A stretch of DNA of 62,533 nucleotides, taken from assembly GCA_964436165.1 (NCBI GenBank), contig CAYTBY010000003.1, positions 1 to 62,533 on the forward strand. The letters are read 5' to 3'. The DNA comes from an uncultured Candidatus Saccharibacteria bacterium. Lineage in GTDB: Bacteria; Patescibacteriota; Minisyncoccia; 2-02-FULL-40-12; GWA2-44-9. Of the stretch, positions 12,447 through 53,489 are shown one piece after another. The notes beneath the pieces were generated by a model. That model ran no database searches. It was given only the letters and a program-made list of their open reading frames with translations, and was not told the origin of the DNA. Position 1 is the stretch's first letter, and each line of letters starts with the position of its first letter. Made by a program: the position numbers and the translations under genes.

Positions 12447-15400
12447 ATGAAGTTCGTACACCTCCACACACATTCTCACTACTCATTACTCGACGGACTA
12501 TCAAGAATAGATGAGTTGATTGCCAAAGCCAAAGAAATGGGCATGGAAGCGCTGGCAATCACCGATCATGGCGTCATGTATGGCGCCATTGAATTTTATA
12601 AGAAAGCGAAAAAGGCGGGAATCAAGCCGATAATCGGCTGTCTTCCTCCTGGCCATTTAATAATAACTAGAGACGGGATTAAATCCATTGAAAGTATAAA
12701 AGTTGGGGATATGGTATTGACCCACAAGGGTAGATTCAAGAAAGTTTCTCATATAATGTCACGGAGCCATAGCGGAAAAATTTACGGGATTAAAGCAGCT
12801 AATTCAAATACTGTATGGGTTACCGAAGAGCATCCTATATTAGTAACAAATTCCCATACTAAATTTACCGAGTGGCGAAGAGCCGATCAGCTCGATTGGG
12901 GTAGGAAAAATAAGCATGGGGGAGTTAAAAGTTGGAAATTATATGCATCATTCCCAAAACTAAAAGAAAATATCGAGGATACCTTATCGCCGCTTAATTA
13001 TCTTGATAAAAATTACTATGGGATTGTAAACGATAATATAAGGAAAATAAAAAAATATAATAAGTATGATTCCTTAATCAGCTCGCCAGTATTATCGTCA
13101 AATATCCAAGTTACTAATGACTTTGCCTATTTTCTTGGCCTTTTCATTGCGGAAGGAAGTTTTCAAAAAGATCCTAAAGGCAGACCGACGTCTTTAACTT
13201 TTACCTTTAATATAAAAGAAGACTATCTTGTATCTAAAGCTCGATATATTTTAGATCAGCTTTCGCCTAATAAAACTTCCATTGCCATTAGACCAAACAA
13301 AAATATTACGGAGATTCATCATTCAAACACCCTTCTGGCTAGATTTATGTATAACTTTGCCGGTCATGGAGCGGGTGGTAAAAGAATACCGCCATCCGCT
13401 TTTTATTGGTCTCTGGGACGTTTAGAAAGTTTGCTTTCTGGGATAGTAGCTGGTGACGGTAGAATCAATCGGGAAAATAATAATGCGGTAGTGCTCAGAG
13501 TAAAATCTCGCGATCTAGCGTGGGGAGTAAAGTTAGTTGCTGCAAAATTGGGATATCCATGCAAAGTATCAGAAAGGCAAGAAGGCAAAAAAACTATATA
13601 TCAAATATGCTGGTCGCCCAATGGTAAATATAAAAGAATACTAGAAGACGATAAATATTTATATTTGCCCATTAAAACCATAGAAACAAAATATTACAGT
13701 GGTCCCGTTTATAATTTTACAGTAGAAGAAGATAATTCTTATGTCTCTGATATCATATTGCATAATTGTGAATTATATATGGCAGAAAACTCAATGCACG
13801 ATAAAAGAGCCGGCATCGATGACAAACGTTATCACCTGATAGTTTTGGCTGAAAATGAGACCGGTTATAAAAATCTGATCAAACTTGTCAGTGCCGCCCA
13901 CCTCGAGGGCTTCTATTATAAGCCGAGGGTCGACAAAGAATTACTAAAAAAACATTCCAATGGCCTTATCGGCTTATCAGCCTGTCTTGGTGGAGAAATC
14001 TCAAGAGCAATTTCTTCAAATAATTTTGCTAAAGCCAAAAAAATTGCCCTGGACTATGAGGAAATATTCGGTAAGGGCAATTTTTTTATCGAACTCCAAC
14101 AACACCCCCATATCGAAGATCAAAACAAAGTCACCCCTCAACTTATAAAGCTAGCCAAAGAAACCGGTATTCCTCTGGTCGCCACTCAAGACTCGCATTA
14201 CCTTAATTCCGATGACGCCCACGCTCATGATGTTCTTCTGGCCGTTCAAACCGGCAATAAATTAGATGACAATGATCGTTTAACCATGAAAGATGACAAT
14301 TTCTCTCTTCTCCACGAATCTGAAATGTATGAAAAATTTAAATCATTAGGCGAGAATGTGGTTGAGGAGGCATTCGGTAATACAAATAAAATCGCCGAGA
14401 GGTGTAATCTAGAGATAGAGCTTGGCAAGACCAAATTGCCCTTTTTCCACTTACCGGAAAATTACAAAAATGCGGATGAATACTTAAAAAAGCTATCTCT
14501 CGACGGCCTATCGGCTCGTTACGGAGACGAGATTAGTAATAACATCCACGACCGTCTTGAATACGAATTGAAAGTAATAACCCAAACCGGTTTTGCTTCC
14601 TATTTCTTGATCGTCCAGGACTTCGTTAACTGGGCCAAACAAAACGGGATTATTGTCGGCCCCGGCCGCGGTTCAGCGGCTGGAAGTTTAGTCTCTTATC
14701 TCCTTGGTATTACTAACATTGATCCCCTCAAATATAATCTCCTTTTCGAAAGATTTCTTAATCCAGAGCGCGTTTCCATGCCTGATATAGATTTGGACTT
14801 CGATGATGCTCGAAGAAACGAAGTACTTAAATACGTCGCTGATAAATACGGCCACGACCATGTTGCCCAAGTAATTACCTTCGGTACGATGGCAGCCCGA
14901 GGAAGCATCCGCGATGCCGGAAGAGCGTTGGGTTATTCTTACGATTTCTGCGACAAAATAGCTAAAATGATACCCCTCAACCCAAATCAGGGCAAATCAA
15001 GCCTAAAGAAAGCCGTTGAGGTCGTCGATGAATTAAAACAGGCTTATGATACCAACCCAGATGTCAAAAAACTAATTGATTCGGCTTCCCGCCTTGAAGG
15101 TGTCGCCCGCCATTCCTCTACCCACGCCTGCGCGGTTGTAATAACCCCGGAGCCACTGACCGAGTATCTGCCTCTTCAGCGCGGTACGAACGAAGAAGAT
15201 ATTATCACTCAATACGATATGCATACTGTCGGAGATGATTTAGGTCTTTTAAAAATTGATTTCCTCGGACTAGCTAACCTGACTATCATTAATAACGCTC
15301 TTACGGAAATAAAAAGAAATCATGGGATAGATATAGACATAGACGCCTTACCCCTGGATGATAAAAAAACTTTTAAACTTCTCCGCGAGGCAAAGACCAC

Positions 15401-16793
15401 AGGTATTTTCCAGTTGGAATCAAATGGAATGAAAAGATATTTAAAAGAATTAAAACCTACCAGCATTGAAGACATTATCGTAATGATATCTTTGTACCGC
15501 CCGGGACCATTGGAAACCGGGATGGTTGAAGAATATATAGAACGGAAACACGGCCGAAAAAAAATCTCGTACCTTCATCCATTAATGGAACCGATTTTAA
15601 ATAATACATATGGCATTATAATTTACCAGGAACAGCTGATGCAGATCGCTAATACTTTGGCAAATTTTACTCTTCCCCAAGGATATACCCTGATAAAAGC
15701 CGTCGGAAAGAAGATAAAATCCCTGCTCGATGAACAAAGGGAGAAACTTATTGATGGAATGGTGGCGAATAACATAAATAAAGTAACCGCTGAAAAGGTC
15801 TGGGATTTCATTGAACCCTTCGCCCGTTATGGATTCAACCGATCCCATGCCGCCTGTTACGCTATGATCGGCTATCAGACCGCCTATCTTAAAGCCAACT
15901 ATCCCACTGAATTTATGGCCGCATTTATGAACAGCGAGACCGGCGACATTGAGAGAGTTGCCTTTCTAATTGAAGAATGTAAAGACATGGGCATTGAGGT
16001 CTTGCCTCCGTCAATAGACGAGAGTTATGAAAGATTTGCGGTTGTCCCCTCAAACGGCAAGCCAGCTATCCGATTCGGTTTAACCGCCGTTAAAAATGTC
16101 GGCGAGAATGTTGTCTCGGCTATCATAAAAGAACGCCGAGCATTGGGCTCTTTCAAAAATGCCGAGGACCTTGTTTCCAGAATTCAAAATAAGGACTTAA
16201 ATAAAAAATCCCTCGAAAGTTTGATAAAATGCGGGGCCATGGATACTTTCGGAGAAAGAAATACCTTGATTCACAATCTTGAAGCCCTTCTTTCTCACGC
16301 CCGCGATAAACAGAAACACTCATCAACCGGCCAAGTTAGTTTATTCGGAAATTCTGTCGAGACCGAATTGCCTCCTTTGCGACTAGCTACTGCCGAACCG
16401 GCAAAATCGTGGGAGAAATTGTTATGGGAAAAAGAACTCTTGGGATTATATGTTTCAGACCATCCTCTCAATAATTGCCAAGCTCAATTAAAACTTGAAA
16501 AGGTTGTACCTATTAAAAGCATTACCCTGACCACGCCCGGCTCAATAAAAATTGGCGGCATTGTAACTCGAGTTCAGAAAATAGTAACCAAGAACGGAAA
16601 ACCGATGTTATTCTCGCACATCGAAGACCTTACATCCAAGATAGAGCTGGTCGTTTTTCCAAACGTTTTAGAAAAAAACCCCGAAATATGGAAAGAAAAC
16701 AGTTTGGTTGTCGCCCGAGGCAAAGTTAATGACCGTGATGGGGTTTTGAAGTTACTCTGCGACGAAGTAAAGCCGTTAATGGCAAGTATTTAA
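12447..16793 (+). CDS. dnaE: DNA polymerase III alpha subunit (intein-containing)
   Basis: [29 protein letters not shown] and FNRSHA motifs, C-terminal OB fold. Confidence 0.98.
12639..13766 (+). mobile_element. DnaE intein with LAGLIDADG endonuclease (376 aa)
   Basis: KPIIG|CLPPG...IILHN|CELY; LAGLIDADG-like [10 protein letters not shown] and [10 protein letters not shown]; excision restores IIGCE. Confidence 0.95.
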
Positions 16794-17186: not shown

Positions 17187-18413
17187 ATGATTACGAGCAA
17201 ACAAGAAAAATCAAAACAAGACCATCGTGATATCGGCCGTGAACTAGACCTGTTCAGTTTCCATGAGATAGCGCCCGGAGCACCGTTTTGGCATCCCAAA
17301 GGCATGGCTATTTTTAAAGAACTCGAGAAATTGGCCCGGGGAATAAATGAACGCGACGGCTACTTGGAAATATCAACCCCGATCCTGGTAAAAAAAGAGG
17401 TTTTTGAAAAATCCGGTCACTGGGACCATTACCGCGATAATATGTTCTACTTTACCAACCCCCGCGATGAAAACGAATCGCTTGTCGTCAAACCGATGAA
17501 TTGCCCCGAATCGACATACATCTATAGTTCGGCCGTAAGAAGTTACCGGGAGCTTCCATTGCGGCTGGCGGAGATCGGACGTTTGAACCGAAATGAGCTT
17601 TCGGGTACTTTGGGCGGCCTTTTCAGGGTCCGTCAGATAACTATGGACGATGCTCATATTTACCTGATGCCCGAACACGTAGAAGACGAGATAGCGAAGA
17701 TAACCAAGACGATAAAGGATTTTTACGGAATGTTCGGCTTTGCTACCACTTATGTTTTAGCTACCCGTCCTAAAGATGCGCTTGGAACCAAAGAAGAATG
17801 GGACCGAGCAGAAAAAGCATTAGAAAATGCCCTTAAAAAAGCCGGGGTCAAATATTCACTGGCAAAAGAAGAGGGGGCGTTTTACGGGCCGAAGATCGAA
17901 GCCCACTTGCGGGATTCCCAGGATCGCGACTGGCAAATGGGCACGGCTCAACTGGATCTGGTTATGCTCCCGAAAGAATTTGATGTCTACTATATCGATG
18001 AAAAGGGTGAGAAGAAAATGCCCTGGGTAATTCACCGGGCGATTTTCGGTTCATTTGAACGTTTCATCGGCGTTCTACTGGAGCATACAAACGGCAACTT
18101 GCCGGTCTGGCTATCCCCCGTTCAAACGATAATCCTGCCGATATCGGACAAACAAAATGAAGGCGCAGAAAAAATATTAGAACAACTTAAAAAAGCCGGC
18201 GTCAGAGCTGAAATAAATACTGACAACGAAACCCTTGGCAAAAAAATACGCTTCGCCGAACTCCAAAAAATTCCATATCTTCTGGTCGTTGGCGACAAAG
18301 AACTACAAGCCAATGCCGTCGCCGTCCGCCAGAGAAGCAAGGGTGATTTAGGCCAGGTAAAAATTGAAGAATTTATCGAAAAAGTAAAAAAAGAAATAAA
18401 AGATAAAAAATAA
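17187..18413 (+). CDS. thrS: Threonyl-tRNA synthetase, short form (catalytic and anticodon domains only)
   Basis: Starts at DHRDIGRELDLF; KPMNCP, MDDAHI, FYGPKI and IHRAIFGSFERF motifs; no N1/N2 domains. Confidence 0.95.
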   Translation: MITSKQEKSKQDHRDIGRELDLFSFHEIAPGAPFWHPKGMAIFKELEKLARGINERDGYLEISTPILVKKEVFEKSGHWDHYRDNMFYFTNPRDENESLVVKPMNCPESTYIYSSAVRSYRELPLRLAEIGRLNRNELSGTLGGLFRVRQITMDDAHIYLMPEHVEDEIAKITKTIKDFYGMFGFATTYVLATRPKDALGTKEEWDRAEKALENALKKAGVKYSLAKEEGAFYGPKIEAHLRDSQDRDWQMGTAQLDLVMLPKEFDVYYIDEKGEKKMPWVIHRAIFGSFERFIGVLLEHTNGNLPVWLSPVQTIILPISDKQNEGAEKILEQLKKAGVRAEINTDNETLGKKIRFAELQKIPYLLVVGDKELQANAVAVRQRSKGDLGQVKIEEFIEKVKKEIKDKK

Positions 18414-28418: not shown

Positions 28419-32165
<3,747 letters not shown>

Positions 32166-32265: not shown

Positions 32266-33402
32266 CTATCTTAATTCCGCCCCGAATTGCCTAGCTGTTT
32301 CATTATAAATTTTCTTCTGAATCGGATCTATTTCTTCGGTGGTAAGGGTCCTCTCGTTTGAGCGATAAATTATGCGGTATGTGTAACTTATTTTGTCTTT
32401 GCCAAATTTTTCTTCATTCTCGTATTTATCAAACGATTCAACCTGCTCGACTAAATCTCCTCCCAAATCACGGATTAAATCAAAATAATTATTAGGCACA
32501 AAGCTTTTATCCACCACAAAAGAAATGTCTCTAGTAATCGGCGGGAATTTAGAAACTTCTTTAAATTTATTCCCCAACTTTAATTGCTTCTTTACCCGTT
32601 CATTCTGAGACCAAAGTAAACGAATATCGGGCAACTCCATGCTAATTATCGCCAACCGCTCCAAACCGAAACCAAAGGCCCAGCCGTTATATTCATTGGG
32701 GTCAACCCCGAGCTTCTCCAACACACTTCCTCGGACAACCCCACTGCCAAGAACTTCAATCCATTTTCCGTTAATCTCTATCTCCATCTCGCAGCTTGGA
32801 TCGGTATATGGAAATTGATCAACATTAAACCGATATTTAATATTCTTGCCGAATATAGCCTGGGCTATTTCAGTTAAAACCTCTTTCAAATCATCAAGGC
32901 CAATTATTTTTTCTGCCTTACGGCACAAGTACCAGCCGTCCATCTGGTGAAAAACGTTCATGTGGTTCCGATCTATCTCGTCTTTACGATAAACTTTTCC
33001 ATAACTCAGAGCCCCGATGCCTTTTCCTTTTTCAATTTTGCTTTTTACTTCTGCTTGTTGCAGATGATAATACCACATTACCGTAGTATGGGTGCGTAAA
33101 ATATGATTATCGTCCAGATAGTAAGTATCTGATTTTGAACGGGCCGGATGATCAGGAGGAAAGTTAAATAAATCGAAACTAATATCAGCTTTTACAATTT
33201 CCGGAACTTCCATAACATCAAAGTCCGCGAACCTTTTAATTTTAAGTATCCTCTCGGCAAGCTCATTAATCGGACTACCTGAAGTCCTGGAAAGATCGGA
33301 CATGCTCAAAAAACGTTTTATTCTTTCGCTCTCAGCATCACTCTTTTTCTTAAGAGTCTCTAGCACATAAGCTCCCTCGTCGTTTTTAGCTTTAATAATC
33401 AT
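32266..33402 (-). CDS. Single-chain phenylalanyl-tRNA synthetase (catalytic core plus C-terminal FDX-ACB anticodon domain)
   Basis: DHPAR...DTYY, GKVYRKD, FPYTDPS and GFGLERLA motifs, then PPITRDISF...YRSNERTLT. Confidence 0.9.
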   Translation of the reverse strand: MIIKAKNDEGAYVLETLKKKSDAESERIKRFLSMSDLSRTSGSPINELAERILKIKRFADFDVMEVPEIVKADISFDLFNFPPDHPARSKSDTYYLDDNHILRTHTTVMWYYHLQQAEVKSKIEKGKGIGALSYGKVYRKDEIDRNHMNVFHQMDGWYLCRKAEKIIGLDDLKEVLTEIAQAIFGKNIKYRFNVDQFPYTDPSCEMEIEINGKWIEVLGSGVVRGSVLEKLGVDPNEYNGWAFGFGLERLAIISMELPDIRLLWSQNERVKKQLKLGNKFKEVSKFPPITRDISFVVDKSFVPNNYFDLIRDLGGDLVEQVESFDKYENEEKFGKDKISYTYRIIYRSNERTLTTEEIDPIQKKIYNETARQFGAELR

Positions 33403-33769
33403 GGGAATCTGTCACGGTTAATTTTGCTTTCTTGTATATCCACAGCTCAATGAGCATCGTAACTACCGCCGCTGCAAAACCAGTATACCAGTACAAAATA
33501 CCATGTTTTCTAAGAAGAACGAGGGCTAAAATAAATAGAGCCAGAAAGAATCCCCGCCTTAAGGAATCTGCCGGTCTATCATTTGAAAAAATATTAAGCA
33601 TAAAAAATACTATCGCTCCACAACCCCAGATAAAAGCCGTCAAAGAGGCAAAGAATAAAGTTTTAATAAAACTGTCAGATTTGAACGGATCAAAATTAAT
33701 GGCCAAAATGGCCAGACTGATTGCCGCTAAAATTGTTATGGGCATAAAGCCGAAGACAAGCTTACGCAT
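33392..33769 (-). CDS. Hypothetical membrane protein
   Basis: Four hydrophobic segments. Confidence 0.7.
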   Translation of the reverse strand: MRKLVFGFMPITILAAISLAILAINFDPFKSDSFIKTLFFASLTAFIWGCGAIVFFMLNIFSNDRPADSLRRGFFLALFILALVLLRKHGILYWYTGFAAAVVTMLIELWIYKKAKLTVTDSHDY

Positions 33770-49922: not shown

Positions 49923-52900
49923 TTATTTTCTCACACCAACCCAGATTTTACGCTGTGGCGCCAACTCGAATTCTTTTTCAACATCATACGTCTTCTTACC
50001 TTTTGGACCAGAGACGAGCTCCTTAAGCAATGCCTCCCTTTTGATTTCCTCTGTCCACTCATGGATTGCCCCCGACACTTCCCCATCATCGGAATGCCAT
50101 TGGCCAAATATTTTCTCATCCAGCTTATATTTAGCTTCTTTCCTCATATCCTGGATTTGGCGGATTAGTTCTCTGGCATAACCCTCACCGATAAGAGCCG
50201 GCGATAATTCTGTGTCCAGGATAACTTCTTCCTTCTGATCTTTGTTCAAAACAACTTCTTTAACGTTGAGTTCTTCCTTTACTAAATCGAGTAACTGGTA
50301 ACTGGTAACTGGTAACTGGTAACTGCGAAGGGTTAGCTTCGCCAACGGTTGACGAACTTTTAACTGCTTTTCTTTTCTTATTGCCAATCCCGCCGTAACA
50401 ATATTTCTTACTTCATCCATCTCCTCCTCTAATTTTTTATCAATCAATTTTTTATCTATCTTCGGCCAATCTTGTAAATGAACACTCTCCAGATATTTAG
50501 ACATATCGATATTTCGATGAAGTCTTAAATGAATATCCTCTGCCAAAAAAGGCGTAAACGGAGCAAGAATCTTAGCTAATTCTAAAAGCAAAAACCTCAA
50601 AAGACCGAGAGCTTCCTTTCTTTTTCTTGAACGCCTCAGCCACCAATTCGACAAATCCTCAATCACGAATTTTTCTATTGCCCGGGCCGCAGTTGTCGGG
50701 TCATATTTATCTAAACTTTGCGTTGCTTCATCAATAAGGCCGTTGAGTTTTGAGATAATCCATCTATCGAGAAGGCTTGTATTCTGTATCTTGTATTTTG
50801 TATCTTGTATTTTTGAGTTAGCGTCGGAGTAATAAAGTTCGTAAAAACGAACACAATTTTGAACAGTAAAAATAAAACCCTTTAGCCTTTCCTGGACGCC
50901 TTTCTGGCTTACAACCATCGATTCTCCAATAGTATTGGCGGTATAAAAATACCAGCGGGTGGCATCAACACCGGCAGTATCAAGCAGTTCATTCGGCCTT
51001 ACAACATTACCGATTGATTTGGACATCTTCTTTCCCTTTTCATCCAAAGTATGACCTAAAACCATCACATTCTTGTAGGGATTGCCCTTGCCCAATAAAG
51101 TTGAGATTGCTAAAAGAGTATAAAACCAACCCCGAGTCTGGTCTATCGCTTCAATTATAAAATCTGCTGGGAATTGTTCTTTGAACATCTTTTTACTGTC
51201 AAACGGCTTGCCCTGAACTGTGTCAAAAGGCCAGTGCCATTGAGCATACGGCATCGCCCCAGAATCAAACCAGACATCTATCAAATCCGGCACTTTTTTC
51301 ATTGAAGCTCCGCACTCGCTGCATTTCAAATAAACTGAATCAACAAACGGCCGGTGAAGATCAAGTTCGCCGTATTCGTTTCTGGGTACCAGCTTCCAAT
51401 CAAGCTTTTGAACCTGAGCAAGATCGGAATAGTGGCCACGACCATCTTCTATCTCTGCTAAAATTTCTTTTCCCGTTGCACCAAGAGAGATCTCGGCAAA
51501 AAGCCAGAGCGGGTCGCCATGACTGACAATAAGAATATTTTTACCGAAGTATTTAGACTCCATTTCGTTTACAAAATCGAACACTCTCAACCGGACATCG
51601 TTCCAGCTCTCGCCTATTTCGTGATGCTTGTCATCCATGGTCGCTTTTTTGTCTCTGAAAGGACAACTGCCATGAGGCTTCCCCTCGCATCCGCCATGAA
51701 CTATCTCTGTGAGCCGATCGTCTTTGTTAACTTTGACATGAGTAAGTTTTGCAACAGTTTCAGCAGTTTCCATCGTCCTGATAAGGGGCGAAGAATAGAT
51801 GAGGTCTATTTTATAGTTGTTCTGAATAAATTGAGCTGTTTTTTCCACCTGCTTACGACCCTCGGCAGTAAGGTGATATTTGTCAGCTTTGGAATCGGCG
51901 CTAATTATCATTTTTTTTCGCTCATCCCGAGTAGTATAACCGTGGCGAAGGGTAAAATAAGTGTTTCTTTTTACAATTGCAGCTGTAGCCTGTTTCTCCA
52001 TTTCAGCAATTGAACCGATGACTTTGTAATTATCGCACTTCTGACATTTCCATATCGGTAGCGGTGTCCCCCAATAACGTTCCCGTGAAAAAGCCCAGTC
52101 CTTTCCCTCTTTCAACCATTGACCGAATCGGCCTTCCTTAATATGTCCGGGAAACCAGTTAATCTTCTGGCTATTTTTCAGAAGTTCTTCTTTAACGCCA
52201 GACATTTTGATGAACCAGGAACTTTTAGCGTAGTACAATAATGGCGAATGACACCGCCAACAGAAAGGATAATCATGTTCGTAGCCCTCTTCTTTAAAAA
52301 GTAGTTTTTTATCTTTAAGATAGTCAATCATTTTTTGGGTTGTCTTTTCTTCCGTCGGCTTATCTTTGTGTTTAACGACTAGACCATCGAAATCTTTCCC
52401 GACTCCAACAAATTTACCCTGTTCGTCAACGGTATGAAACTTGGGCAGTCCGAGTTTGGTACCTAAATCATAATCATCTTCACCATACATGACCGCCGTA
52501 TGGACAACGCCCGTACCTTCTTCAGTTGAAACAAAATCGGCATCGTAGACTTTATATGATGTTCGTGATTTTAATTCTTTAATGTCGAAAGGGGGTTCAT
52601 ATTCAAGGCCGACAAAGTCACTGCCTTTGTATTTTGTATCTTGTATTTTGTATCCTGTATCGGATCCAAGAACCTTATTTACCAGATCTTCGGCTAATAT
52701 AAAATGTTCCCCCTCTTTTTCGGCAATTACATAGCTAATATCCTTCCCGACAGCCAGAGCGACATTCCCCGGAAGCGTCCAAGGTGTCGTTGTCCAAGCG
52801 AGAATACAGGAATTAGGAAGTAGTTTGTAGGATTTAGGGTTTTTAATTTTAAATTTCACAATAACTGACCTATCAGTTATTGTGCGGTATCCTTGCGCAA

Positions 52901-53489
52901 CTTCATGAGATGAAATCGACGTTCCGCATCTGGCGCAATAAGGCACGACTTTGTGAGCAAGATACAACAGCTTCTTGTTCCATATTTGCTGGATTATATA
53001 CCAGAGCGTCTCAATATAATTATTTTCATAAGTAATATAGGGATCTTTCATATCCAGCCAGAATCCCATTTTTCGAGTCATCTCCTCCCATTCGGCCTTA
53101 TATTTCCAGACGCTTTCCCTGGCTTTTTTATTAAATTTTTCGATGCCGTAATTTTCTATATCTTTTTTAGACTTAAAACCCAATTCTTTTTCTACCTCAA
53201 TTTCCACCGGCAAACCATGGGTGTCCCAGCCGGCTTTACGCAAAACAAAAAAGCCCTGCATTGTTTTGTATCGGCCATAAAGATCTTTATAGACCCTGGT
53301 TAAAAAGTGGCCGATGTGGGGCAAACCATTGGCTGTCGGCGGGCCCTCAAAAAACACAAAGCGTTTGCCTGCCCGCCGAAGTCTTGACGAAGGAGGGGCT
53401 TTTTTGCGGGCCTCCAGAGATTTATCAAAAATATGGTTTTTATGCCAAAACTCAAGAATTTTATGTTCTGTATCCTTAAAATCGTACAT
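49923..53489 (-). CDS. ileS: Isoleucyl-tRNA synthetase (type 2) with an inserted histidine-phosphatase domain
   Basis: FFEGPPTANG...HIGH, GWDTHGLP, FSRERYWG and KMSKS motifs; insert carries LRHG...SHG. Confidence 0.96.
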   Translation of the reverse strand: MYDFKDTEHKILEFWHKNHIFDKSLEARKKAPPSSRLRRAGKRFVFFEGPPTANGLPHIGHFLTRVYKDLYGRYKTMQGFFVLRKAGWDTHGLPVEIEVEKELGFKSKKDIENYGIEKFNKKARESVWKYKAEWEEMTRKMGFWLDMKDPYITYENNYIETLWYIIQQIWNKKLLYLAHKVVPYCARCGTSISSHEVAQGYRTITDRSVIVKFKIKNPKSYKLLPNSCILAWTTTPWTLPGNVALAVGKDISYVIAEKEGEHFILAEDLVNKVLGSDTGYKIQDTKYKGSDFVGLEYEPPFDIKELKSRTSYKVYDADFVSTEEGTGVVHTAVMYGEDDYDLGTKLGLPKFHTVDEQGKFVGVGKDFDGLVVKHKDKPTEEKTTQKMIDYLKDKKLLFKEEGYEHDYPFCWRCHSPLLYYAKSSWFIKMSGVKEELLKNSQKINWFPGHIKEGRFGQWLKEGKDWAFSRERYWGTPLPIWKCQKCDNYKVIGSIAEMEKQATAAIVKRNTYFTLRHGYTTRDERKKMIISADSKADKYHLTAEGRKQVEKTAQFIQNNYKIDLIYSSPLIRTMETAETVAKLTHVKVNKDDRLTEIVHGGCEGKPHGSCPFRDKKATMDDKHHEIGESWNDVRLRVFDFVNEMESKYFGKNILIVSHGDPLWLFAEISLGATGKEILAEIEDGRGHYSDLAQVQKLDWKLVPRNEYGELDLHRPFVDSVYLKCSECGASMKKVPDLIDVWFDSGAMPYAQWHWPFDTVQGKPFDSKKMFKEQFPADFIIEAIDQTRGWFYTLLAISTLLGKGNPYKNVMVLGHTLDEKGKKMSKSIGNVVRPNELLDTAGVDATRWYFYTANTIGESMVVSQKGVQERLKGFIFTVQNCVRFYELYYSDANSKIQDTKYKIQNTSLLDRWIISKLNGLIDEATQSLDKYDPTTAARAIEKFVIEDLSNWWLRRSRKRKEALGLLRFLLLELAKILAPFTPFLAEDIHLRLHRNIDMSKYLESVHLQDWPKIDKKLIDKKLEEEMDEVRNIVTAGLAIRKEKQLKVRQPLAKLTLRSYQLPVTSYQLLDLVKEELNVKEVVLNKDQKEEVILDTELSPALIGEGYARELIRQIQDMRKEAKYKLDEKIFGQWHSDDGEVSGAIHEWTEEIKREALLKELVSGPKGKKTYDVEKEFELAPQRKIWVGVRK
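50291..50325. repeat. (GTAACTG)x5 tandem array within ileS
   Basis: Five perfect heptamers; translate as SYQLPVTSYQL. Confidence 0.9.

What the first reader, a model, noticed from the sequence alone, without database searches (positions are those of the whole stretch)
32266..33402. Mitochondrial-type monomeric PheRS in a bacterium
Seen: one 378-aa chain with an alpha-type catalytic core fused to a C-terminal FDX-ACB anticodon domain, and no pheT adjacent. Established: bacteria normally use (alpha-beta)2 PheRS, whereas this alpha plus beta-C-terminus chimera is the architecture of mitochondrial/plastid PheRS. Motifs such as GWAFGFGLERLA...LPDIRLLW and DHPAR..DTYY closely resemble the organellar enzyme as I recall it. 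Inference: a free bacterial relative, or possible source, of organellar PheRS; it lacks the B3/B4 editing domain.
Basis: partly seen in the sequence, partly recalled or inferred. Interest (0 to 1): 0.8.

Follow-up and report, generated by a model that had tools for sequence, protein, structure and literature searches.

The report
Single-chain mitochondrial-style PheRS in CPR bacterium
This groundwater ultra-small (CPR/Paceibacteria-type) bacterium encodes a one-piece phenylalanyl-tRNA synthetase built like the mitochondrial enzyme, at the chromosomal spot where related bacteria keep the usual two-gene, proofreading enzyme, so a large bacterial group probably charges tRNA-Phe in a way textbooks assign only to organelles.

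Summary
ORF 32266-33402 (-) encodes 378 aa: a PheS class II core (aa 38-273) fused to an FDX-ACB anticodon-binding domain (aa 284-378). It has no PheS N-terminal coiled coil, no B3/B4 editing domain, and no pheT in the window.

All ATP- and Phe-binding motifs are intact. The AlphaFold model superposes end to end on closed human mitochondrial PheRS (TM 0.77).

The gene belongs to a highly conserved family (65-80% identity) found in at least 587 species genomes of Paceibacteria/Doudnabacteria-type CPR. It usually lies directly upstream of gyrB. Related CPR genomes with the classical enzyme have pheS-ORF-pheT-gyrB at that spot, so the fused gene occupies the pheST slot.

Core and ACB trees put all fused forms apart from all canonical PheS/PheT, including CPR ones. 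The fused forms are this CPR family, the mitochondrial-type clade (which also holds huge-phage genes) and SrmL. An in-situ fusion from resident CPR pheS is rejected (AU p = 0.003). A sister relation to the mitochondrial clade is neither supported nor rejected (p = 0.22).

I found no paper describing this. Verdict: very probably the housekeeping PheRS, a new bacterial variant of the mitochondrial-type enzyme.

The parts
32266..33402 (-). Single-chain PheRS gene, 378 aa plus stop codon
   Evidence: ORF; Pfam tRNA-synt_2d + FDX-ACB; best PDB match is human mitochondrial PheRS, E 4e-60; AlphaFold model pLDDT 87.7 with TM 0.76-0.77 to 3CMQ/5MGH.
33292..33402 (-). Short N-terminal helical segment (aa 1-37). 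It takes the place of the roughly 100-aa coiled-coil tRNA-binding arm of canonical PheS.
   Evidence: No PF02912 hit. The model shows helices at aa 8-18 and 23-33. Canonical CPR PheS (L108, L109) carry Phe_tRNA-synt_N.
32584..33291 (-). Class IIc catalytic core (aa 38-273). Motifs: LRTHTT (aa 102-107), motif 2 YRKDEIDRNHMNVFHQMDG (138-156), Phe pocket FPYTDPS (197-203), motif 3 GWAFGFGLERLA (240-251).
   Evidence: Pfam. These residues are invariant in 39 family members. Aligned with E. coli, human mitochondrial and SrmL sequences. T200 and A242 align with the E. coli PheS FPFT and GFAFG positions; I recall those residues as T251 and A294, the numbering is from memory and was not checked here.
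32554..32583 (-). Linker between the core and the anticodon-binding domain (aa 274-283). It follows the PDIRLLWS..ERVKKQL segment shared with mitochondrial-type enzymes.
   Evidence: Alignment with human mitochondrial PheRS and the motif table.
32269..32553 (-). FDX-ACB (B8-type) anticodon-binding domain (aa 284-378)
   Evidence: Pfam E 3.7e-25. Searched alone, it scores 60 bits to human mitochondrial PheRS against 38 bits to the best bacterial PheT. It clusters with the ACB of other fused enzymes, apart from 28 PheT ACB domains.
28419..32156 (-). gyrB (intein-containing), the conserved co-directional downstream neighbour that marks the ancestral pheS-pheT slot
   Evidence: Homology to gyrB neighbours. 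gyrB lies within 3 kb downstream on the same strand in 48 loci; 62 of the 80 loci hold at least 3 kb downstream. Canonical CPR loci read pheS-ORF-pheT-gyrB.
33392..33769 (-). Upstream 125-aa membrane-protein ORF whose stop overlaps the PheRS start by 11 nt (likely co-transcribed)
   Evidence: ORF list; no Pfam hit; homologue in the same position in 5 related loci.

Best explanation
The gene encodes the cell's housekeeping phenylalanyl-tRNA synthetase in a one-polypeptide form.

Proposed mechanism, by analogy with human mitochondrial PheRS:
- The class IIc core binds ATP and Phe and forms Phe-AMP.
- The C-terminal FDX-ACB domain reads the GAA anticodon of tRNA-Phe.
- The enzyme rests in a closed state with the ACB domain packed on the core, and swings open on tRNA binding.
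- It has no B3/B4 domain, so it cannot hydrolyse Tyr-tRNA-Phe or meta-Tyr-tRNA-Phe. Fidelity must rest on active-site discrimination alone.

Proposed history: in this CPR lineage the fused gene displaced the classical pheS-pheT pair at its ancestral position just upstream of gyrB. It came from an old lineage of fused PheRS genes, not from the resident pheS/pheT. In some sister lineages (not in this window) the B2 tRNA-binding domain of the lost PheT survives as a small upstream gene or as an N-terminal fusion.

Shown: architecture, intact motifs, fold, family conservation, synteny, slot equivalence, phylogenetic separation.
Inferred: enzymatic activity, monomeric state, status as sole PheRS, lack of editing in vivo.
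For: Architecture and similarity:
- Core plus ACB only. NCBIfam best hit is pheS_mito at 248.9 bits. Best solved structure is human mitochondrial PheRS, E 4e-60.
- AlphaFold model has pLDDT 87.7 and pTM 0.78. It matches closed human mitochondrial PheRS over about 388 columns at TM 0.76-0.77 and rmsd 3.5-3.8 A. The open tRNA-bound form 3TUP gives TM 0.58. Bacterial PheS alpha covers only the core.

Active site:
- LRTHTT, YR..D..H..FHQMDG, FPYTDPS and GWAFGxGxER are all invariant across the family.
- The true 'mystery ligase' SrmL has changed these motifs (PHQxDLW, HPYTxGG).

Core-gene behaviour:
- More than 7,000 database proteins match. The top 120 are 71-81% identical and 368-424 aa long.
They span Yanofsky-, Giovannoni-, Wolfe-, Lipton-, Nomura-, Azam-, Harrison-, Niyogi- and Doudnabacteria, Spechtbacterales and Minisyncoccia.
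- All 80 loci fetched hold a PheS-like open frame spanning the match.

Slot test:
- gyrB lies directly downstream in 48 loci; 62 of the 80 hold at least 3 kb downstream.
- CPR genomes with the classical enzyme have pheS-ORF-pheT-gyrB-secE-nusG-L11.

No PheT seen:
- No B3/4, B5 or other PheT part in the window or in 1.18 Mb flanking the 80 relatives.
- No contig length is shared between the contigs that carry fused genes and those that carry CPR PheT.

Phylogeny:
- CPR canonical PheS sits inside the canonical clade (100/100). The fused CPR clade is separate (100/98).
- AU rejects fused CPR + canonical CPR as one clade (p = 0.003).
- ACB domains of all 28 PheT (13 from CPR) lie on one side of a 93/92 branch against 64 fused ACB.
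Against: - A canonical pair elsewhere is not excluded.
- The protein scores just below the curated TIGR00469 cut-off (248.9 against 258.35) and equally well to SrmL (248 against 300).
- Some Paceibacterales genomes do keep canonical pheS-pheT (PMC10936435 Table S2). 'Doudnabacteria' include both types. Lineage membership alone therefore does not prove replacement.
- There is no expression or biochemical evidence. Only DNA runs hold this stretch.
- Monomeric state is inferred only from the missing coiled coil and from the model.
Confidence: 0.78

Rival explanations
1. The gene is an auxiliary paralogue. A canonical pheS-pheT pair elsewhere in the genome does the housekeeping job, and this protein is a second PheRS (for example stress- or inhibitor-resistant) or an SrmL-like ligase with another substrate.
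For: Fused PheS-like genes do exist as accessory genes beside canonical pheST. True SrmL (NF051887, 515-524 bits) sits on a Glutamicibacter plasmid next to a chloramphenicol efflux gene and on an Azotobacter plasmid. The query scores 248 bits to SrmL. Genome-wide absence of pheT was not tested.
Against: The query keeps every PheRS active-site motif that SrmL has altered and is below the SrmL cut-off of 300. It forms a clade separate from SrmL (100/100). It occupies the pheS-pheT slot upstream of gyrB in a conserved housekeeping neighbourhood. It is conserved at 65-80% identity across many candidate phyla. No contig was found with both forms.
Confidence: 0.12
2. The fusion arose independently and recently inside CPR, by deletion between the resident pheS and the 3' end of the resident pheT at the gyrB-proximal locus. 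On this view the likeness to mitochondrial PheRS is convergent.
For: The fused gene lies exactly where pheS-ORF-pheT lies in related CPR genomes. The B2 domain gene next to some fused genes is 56-68% identical to CPR PheT B2, so it is of local origin. In the best core tree the fused CPR clade joins the canonical clade, with 93/82 support.
Against: CPR canonical PheS nests within canonical bacterial PheS (100/100), away from the fused CPR clade. Forcing fused CPR + canonical CPR together costs 62 lnL units and is rejected (AU p = 0.003). The ACB domain groups with other fused enzymes, not with 13 CPR PheT ACB domains (93/92). The gene order B2-core-ACB in relatives cannot result from a simple internal deletion of pheS-pheT. 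Fast evolution after fusion could still mimic this pattern.
Confidence: 0.07
3. The gene is a decaying or inactive remnant, or an assembly or binning artefact.
For: No expression data. NCBI annotates the family as 'hypothetical protein'.
Against: The ORF is intact and of family-typical length. The same protein is found on an independent Logan contig. The catalytic residues are invariant. The gene is present in hundreds of independent assemblies with conserved synteny.
Confidence: 0.02

Closest known systems
Mitochondrial/organellar single-chain PheRS (human FARS2, PDB 3CMQ closed and 3TUP open with tRNA; yeast Msf1; 'PheRS-M' of AARS Online; NCBIfam TIGR00469)
   Same: Same two-module chain (PheS-type core plus C-terminal FDX-ACB/B8 domain). 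No coiled-coil arm and no B3/B4 editing domain. Same catalytic motifs. Shared PDIRLxW(S/C) junction. Whole-chain fold match at TM 0.76-0.77 to the closed form. The ACB domain is nearer to the mitochondrial one (60 bits) than to any solved PheT (38 bits).
   Different: Encoded in a bacterial chromosome in a housekeeping operon context. It forms a separate clade (100/98), not nested in the TIGR00469 clade. It scores 248.9, below the cut-off of 258.35. It lacks the insertion that splits the core match in eukaryotic sequences. Searched alone, the core is no closer to the human mitochondrial enzyme (139 bits) than to A. baumannii PheS (146 bits). Some relatives add a PheT-type B2 domain, free-standing or fused.
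Canonical bacterial (alpha-beta)2 PheRS: PheS (TIGR00468) plus PheT (TIGR00472), e.g. E. coli 3PCO, T. thermophilus 1PYS/2IY5
   Same: Homologous catalytic core (about 32-35% identity, E about 1e-36 to 1e-41) and homologous ACB domain. Same chromosomal slot upstream of gyrB as pheS-pheT in related CPR genomes.
   Different: One chain instead of two. No Phe_tRNA-synt_N, B1, B3/4, B5 or B6/7 domains. Below the TIGR00468 cut-off (181.7 against 237.45). Outside the canonical clade in both the core tree (100/100) and the ACB tree (93/92). It also lacks the Cys-rich insertion (CxxCxGxGCxxCK) seen in most canonical PheS, including the CPR ones.
SrmL, 'PheS-related mystery ligase' (NCBIfam NF051887)
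   Same: Same fused core-plus-ACB layout and similar length (about 350-420 aa). Part of the same set of fused forms that stands apart from canonical PheS.
   Different: SrmL members score 400-524 bits; the query scores 248, against a cut-off of 300. SrmL has altered motif 2 and Phe-pocket residues and sits in accessory or plasmid contexts in organisms with normal pheST. It is a long separate branch (100/100).
Single-chain PheRS genes of huge phages (340-430 kb contigs)
   Same: Same two-domain layout in compact 341-367-aa forms without the eukaryotic insertion.
   Different: The phage genes fall inside the TIGR00469 mitochondrial-type clade, not in the CPR clade, and are only 33-39% identical to the query.

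Membership tests
Mitochondrial-type single-chain PheRS (PheRS-M / TIGR00469) | One chain made of a PheS-type class IIc core followed by a C-terminal FDX-ACB domain | tested here: met
   Pfam tRNA-synt_2d at aa 38-273 plus FDX-ACB at aa 284-378.
Mitochondrial-type single-chain PheRS (PheRS-M / TIGR00469) | No N-terminal coiled-coil arm and no B3/B4 editing module | tested here: met
   No PF02912, PF03483 or PF03484 in the protein. No PheT parts in the window.
Mitochondrial-type single-chain PheRS (PheRS-M / TIGR00469) | Curated equivalog score cut-off (258.35 bits) | tested here: not met
   The query scores 248.9 bits. A family representative, P0121, scores 264.3. The family straddles the cut-off.
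Mitochondrial-type single-chain PheRS (PheRS-M / TIGR00469) | Branches within the clade of organellar enzymes | tested here: not met
   Separate CPR clade at 100/98 to 100/99. The mitochondrial-type clade has 91/96 support. A sister relation is not rejected (AU p = 0.22; p = 0.7 on the earlier data set).
Mitochondrial-type single-chain PheRS (PheRS-M / TIGR00469) | Closed core/ACB arrangement of the apo enzyme (3CMQ) | tested here: met
   The AlphaFold model gives TM 0.76-0.77 and rmsd 3.5-3.8 A over the whole chain to 3CMQ/5MGH/5MGV, against 0.58 to the open 3TUP. This is a predicted structure, not an experiment.
Mitochondrial-type single-chain PheRS (PheRS-M / TIGR00469) | Monomeric enzyme that aminoacylates tRNA-Phe without editing | not testable with these tools
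   Needs purified protein: size-exclusion or light scattering, aminoacylation and Tyr/meta-Tyr misacylation assays.
Canonical bacterial PheS alpha subunit (TIGR00468) | Curated cut-off of 237.45 bits and an N-terminal Phe_tRNA-synt_N domain | tested here: not met
   181.7 bits; no PF02912.
Canonical bacterial PheS alpha subunit (TIGR00468) | Partner pheT gene (B3_4, B5, B6/7, ACB), usually adjacent | tested here: inconclusive
   None in the 62.5-kb window and none within 10 kb in 80 relatives. The whole genome could not be searched.
Canonical bacterial PheS alpha subunit (TIGR00468) | Branches within bacterial PheS | tested here: not met
   17 canonical PheS, including 2 from CPR, form a 100/100 clade that excludes it. 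The AU test rejects a clade with CPR canonical PheS at p = 0.003.
SrmL PheS-related mystery ligase (NF051887) | Curated cut-off of 300 bits | tested here: not met
   248 bits. True members score 402-524 bits.
SrmL PheS-related mystery ligase (NF051887) | SrmL-type active-site changes (PHQxDLW in motif 2; HPYTxGG in place of FPxTxPS) | tested here: not met
   The query has FHQMDGW and FPYTDPS, as bona fide PheRS does.

The most novel reading that the evidence does not exclude
All single-chain PheRS-type enzymes descend from one ancient PheS-core::B8 fusion that stands outside the whole radiation of canonical bacterial PheS/PheT. These enzymes are this CPR family, the organellar enzymes, the huge-phage genes and SrmL.

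On this reading the 'mitochondrial' design is a prokaryotic or viral invention. Eukaryotes recruited it, possibly from a phage, as is proposed for mitochondrial RNA polymerase. Separately, it displaced the proofreading (alpha-beta)2 enzyme in hundreds to thousands of CPR species, which therefore translate Phe codons without PheRS editing. In some lineages the B2 domain of the dismantled PheT was kept as a tRNA-binding helper.
Probability: 0.35. Interest if true: 0.85.

Novelty: new variant of a known kind. Interest (0 to 1): 0.7.

Why it matters
Textbooks and the aaRS classification used in AARS Online describe bacterial PheRS as an (alpha-beta)2 heterotetramer with a B3/B4 proofreading site, and reserve the single-chain form (PheRS-M) for mitochondria.

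If this enzyme is the sole PheRS of its host, several things follow:
- A large part of the CPR (at least 587 species genomes here) runs translation without PheRS editing. That bears on how these organisms tolerate tyrosine and meta-tyrosine.
- A small, probably monomeric bacterial PheRS becomes available for biochemistry and engineering.
- The unresolved origin of mitochondrial PheRS becomes testable with cellular and phage relatives.
- Genome annotation needs correcting, because NCBI labels the family 'hypothetical protein'.
- Completeness estimates that use pheS/pheT as marker genes will under-score these genomes.

Tried and rejected
- A 1-aa insertion in the motif 2 loop (YRxDxIDxxH) looked like a marker shared by fused forms. 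The census showed canonical PheS have either length (8 or 9), so I dropped it.
- 'GWAFG' as a mitochondrial marker: Legionella canonical PheS has it too.
- Literature searches for a bacterial or CPR single-chain PheRS, for SrmL, and for pheT or TIGR00472 in Patescibacteria found no description.
- Supplement searches for K01889/K01890 tables in two CPR genomics papers and in the Minisyncoccus description found nothing. Only PMC10936435 was informative: it shows canonical pheST in one Paceibacterales bin.
- The listing of cluster members gave almost no names for the deep representatives.
- A viral-contig scan with the single phage-like protein P0274 found nothing. The alignment query found two huge-phage loci.
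- Rooting the tree with archaeal or eukaryotic cytosolic PheRS-alpha: I could not obtain outgroup sequences with the open tools, so all trees are unrooted.
- No RNA runs hold this stretch, so there is no expression evidence.
- The first 'careful' free tree search was not converged. A constrained search found a better tree, so I report backbone relations among the four groups as unresolved.
Full report
**Observation.**
- Pfam finds a PheS-type class II core (tRNA-synt_2d, aa 38-273, E 7.5e-59) followed by an FDX-ACB domain (aa 284-378, E 3.7e-25), and nothing else.
- NCBIfam ranks three models, all below their curated cut-offs: pheS_mito TIGR00469 (248.9 bits, cut-off 258.35), SrmL 'PheS-related mystery ligase' NF051887 (248, cut-off 300) and canonical pheS TIGR00468 (181.7, cut-off 237.45).
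- The best solved-structure relative is human mitochondrial PheRS (E 4e-60), ahead of bacterial PheS alpha subunits (E 2e-41 and weaker).
- There is no other PheS-like or PheT-like sequence in the window.

**Host and neighbourhood.**
- The window looks like a CPR (Patescibacteria) genome. It has about 41% GC, intein-bearing dnaE and gyrB, many aminoacyl-tRNA synthetase genes and many small membrane ORFs.
- The closest named relatives of the protein come from Taylor-, Sungii-, Lipton-, Yanofsky- and Azambacteria.
- The DNA is held by groundwater metagenome runs.
- The gene overlaps the stop of a small membrane-protein ORF upstream. gyrB follows after 109 bp.

**Family.**
- More than 7,000 database proteins match. 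The best 120 are 71-81% identical, 368-424 aa long and have the same two domains. NCBI mostly calls them 'hypothetical protein'.
The best 80 are spread over many Paceibacteria-type candidate phyla plus Doudnabacteria.
- All 80 hold a PheS-like open frame spanning the match.
- gyrB lies co-directionally within 3 kb downstream in 48 loci; 62 of the 80 loci hold at least 3 kb downstream. The same order is seen in the closed 923-kb genome CP066690.1 and in a 733-kb scaffold.
- This is how a vertically inherited core gene behaves.

**Is it a working PheRS?**
- The residues that bind ATP and Phe in PheS are invariant in the family: LRTHTT, motif 2 YR..D..H..FHQMDG, the FPYTDPS pocket strand and motif 3 GWAFGxGxER.
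- T200 and A242 align with the E. coli FPFT and GFAFG positions. I recall these as T251 and A294, the residue that sets pocket size. That numbering and role come from memory and were not checked here.
- True SrmL proteins have changed exactly these positions, to PHQxDLW and HPYTxGG. I recovered two from plasmids of Glutamicibacter and Azotobacter, at 524 and 515 bits.
- An AlphaFold model from a 39-sequence alignment has pLDDT 87.7 and pTM 0.78.
- It superposes over the whole chain on the closed form of human mitochondrial PheRS (3CMQ, 5MGH, 5MGV; TM 0.76-0.77, rmsd 3.5-3.8 A). The fit to the open tRNA-bound 3TUP is poorer (TM 0.58). Bacterial PheS matches only the core.
- I therefore infer the mitochondrial mechanism: adenylate formation in the core, anticodon reading by the ACB domain after a hinge opening, and no post-transfer editing.

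The indirect evidence is as follows.
- No PheT part occurs in the window, and none (B3/4, B5) occurs in 1.18 Mb flanking the 80 relatives.
- Slot test: I used the PheT-like B2 domain found next to some relatives as a probe and recovered full-length CPR PheT proteins and their loci.
  - In a Doudnabacteria genome (540-kb contig), in a 699-kb contig and in a 103-kb JGI contig, the order is pheS (with the N-terminal coiled-coil domain) - one ORF - pheT (tRNA_bind, B3_4, B5, B6/7, ACB) - gyrB - secE/nusG/L11.
  - Fused-type genomes have (B2) - fused PheRS - gyrB - secE/nusG/L11.
  - The fused gene thus occupies the ancestral pheS-pheT position.
- No contig length is shared between the contigs that carry fused genes and those that carry CPR PheT. 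This is weak evidence.
- The class is not uniform. A published Paceibacterales bin has canonical pheS-pheT (PMC10936435 Table S2), and 'Doudnabacteria' include both types.

**Phylogeny.** I combined four sets of sequences:
- deep representatives from the 1.84-billion-protein library;
- 15 named canonical PheS/PheT taken from mislabelled chromosomes in the plasmid collection and from E. coli;
- two plasmid SrmL genes;
- later, two CPR canonical PheS and 13 CPR PheT.

NCBIfam labelling defines four groups: canonical PheS, the fused CPR clade, a TIGR00469 'mitochondrial-type' clade, and SrmL. Results on the core domain (careful IQ-TREE, LG+C20):
- Canonical PheS including the CPR canonical ones: 100/100.
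- Fused CPR clade: 100/98.
- SrmL: 100/100.
- Mitochondrial-type clade: 91/96.
- Forcing fused CPR and canonical CPR PheS together costs 62 lnL units and is rejected (AU p = 0.003). The gene is therefore not a recent in-situ fusion of the resident genes.

The backbone among the four groups is unresolved:
- The best tree joins the fused CPR clade to the canonical clade (93/82).
- A fused CPR + mitochondrial-type grouping is not rejected (p = 0.22). On an earlier data set that grouping even had the higher likelihood.

Other domain results:
- On the ACB domain, all 28 PheT ACB domains (13 from CPR) lie on one side of a 93/92 branch against all 64 fused ACB domains.
- Searched alone against solved structures, the core is as close to A. 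baumannii PheS (146 bits) as to the human mitochondrial enzyme (139). The ACB domain is clearly closer to the mitochondrial one (60 against 38 bits).
- Both domains are thus consistent with one old lineage of fused enzymes. All trees are unrooted, however, and fast evolution after fusion could exaggerate the separation.

**Relatives of note.**
- The mitochondrial-type clade is not purely eukaryotic. A 348-aa member lies on a 340-kb phage-like contig. Two IMG/VR huge-phage contigs (430 and 389 kb) carry 341- and 367-aa members that nest in that clade.
- The CPR clade has deeper branches. One is in a lineage that reads TGA as sense. Another is in an Oligoflexia-labelled MAG.
- In 13 of the 80 relatives, a 133-172-aa gene encoding a PheT-type B2 tRNA-binding domain sits directly upstream of the fused gene. 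In at least 8 protein clusters it is fused in frame, giving a 504-520-aa B2-core-ACB chain.
- This B2 is 56-68% identical to the B2 of CPR PheT but only 40-52% identical to that of other bacteria. It therefore looks like a locally retained piece of the displaced PheT.
- The present window has no such gene.

**Comparison with what is known.**
- The protein works like PheRS-M but is not a member of the organellar clade. It is neither a canonical PheS nor an SrmL by score, motifs or tree.
- In the searchable literature I found no description of a bacterial single-chain PheRS. AARS Online and the accompanying NAR paper list PheRS-M with FARS2 only. Other searches were negative.
- Earlier notes of this scan report the same family in many other genomes. 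I treated them as leads.
- Two of their claims I tested here and found to hold: the slot equivalence, and the B2 helper gene in relatives.

**Verdict.**
- The most likely reading (confidence about 0.78) is a housekeeping, editing-free, single-chain PheRS that displaced pheS-pheT in this lineage.
A common origin of all fused forms remains plausible (about 0.35).
- The main gap is the untested absence of pheS/pheT from this genome.

Noticed in passing
window 49923-53489 (-): [quoted passage not shown] This is an unusual insertion for an aminoacyl-tRNA synthetase.
   Followed up: no
window 28419-32156 (-) and 12447-16793 (+): gyrB (1245 aa) and dnaE (1448 aa, with LAGLIDADG_3 and Intein_splicing hits) both carry large inteins. 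The gyrB of CP066690.1 has an intein too, but that of the 733-kb scaffold does not.
   Followed up: partly
window 17187-18413 (+): A 408-aa class II synthetase (tRNA-synt_2b plus HGTP_anticodon) has no N-terminal TGS or editing domains. An earlier first-stage note flags it as a minimal ThrRS.
   Followed up: no
L070:9608-11128 (+); also P0278-P0283, P0291: Three-domain single-chain PheRS (PheT-type B2 tRNA_bind + core + FDX-ACB, 504-520 aa) in several CPR lineages. In 12 other loci the B2 domain is a separate 133-172-aa gene just upstream, for example L088:9336-9767.
   Followed up: partly
L023:8001-9047; L106:2953-3975; L107:2992-4104: Huge-phage contigs (340, 430 and 389 kb) encode compact single-chain PheRS genes. 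L023's protein shares a 90%-identity cluster with P0134, which passes the TIGR00469 cut-off; L106 and L107 nest in the mitochondrial-type clade of the tree. This raises the question whether organellar PheRS has phage kin.
   Followed up: partly
L007:6016-7134 (Glutamicibacter plasmid pGnB68); L008:5974-7086 (Azotobacter plasmid): True SrmL 'mystery ligase' genes, annotated as hypothetical, lie on plasmids. One is next to a Cmx/CmrA chloramphenicol efflux gene. Their motif 2 and Phe-pocket residues are altered.
   Followed up: partly
L024:8001-9371: A 456-aa member of the deeper fused CPR clade translates to the database protein only if TGA is read as sense. It therefore lies in a recoded (Gracilibacteria/Absconditabacteria-like) lineage, next to an ATP synthase operon.
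   Followed up: no
L108:6420-7991; L109:6465-7961: In CPR genomes with the classical enzyme, an unrelated 343-523-aa ORF with no strong Pfam hit (none in L108; only weak or faint TSP3_bac, plus Cupredoxin_1 in the JGI locus) is wedged between pheS and pheT.
   Followed up: no
L073 (DASPNG010000107.1) and the many 'uncultured Candidatus Saccharibacteria' TPA_asm records among L026-L105: The record titles disagree with the gene content. A 'Candidatus Binatia' bin holds a 4.5-kb contig with this CPR gene, and the generic 'Saccharibacteria' labels sit on Paceibacteria-like loci. This is probably mis-binning or generic naming.
   Followed up: no
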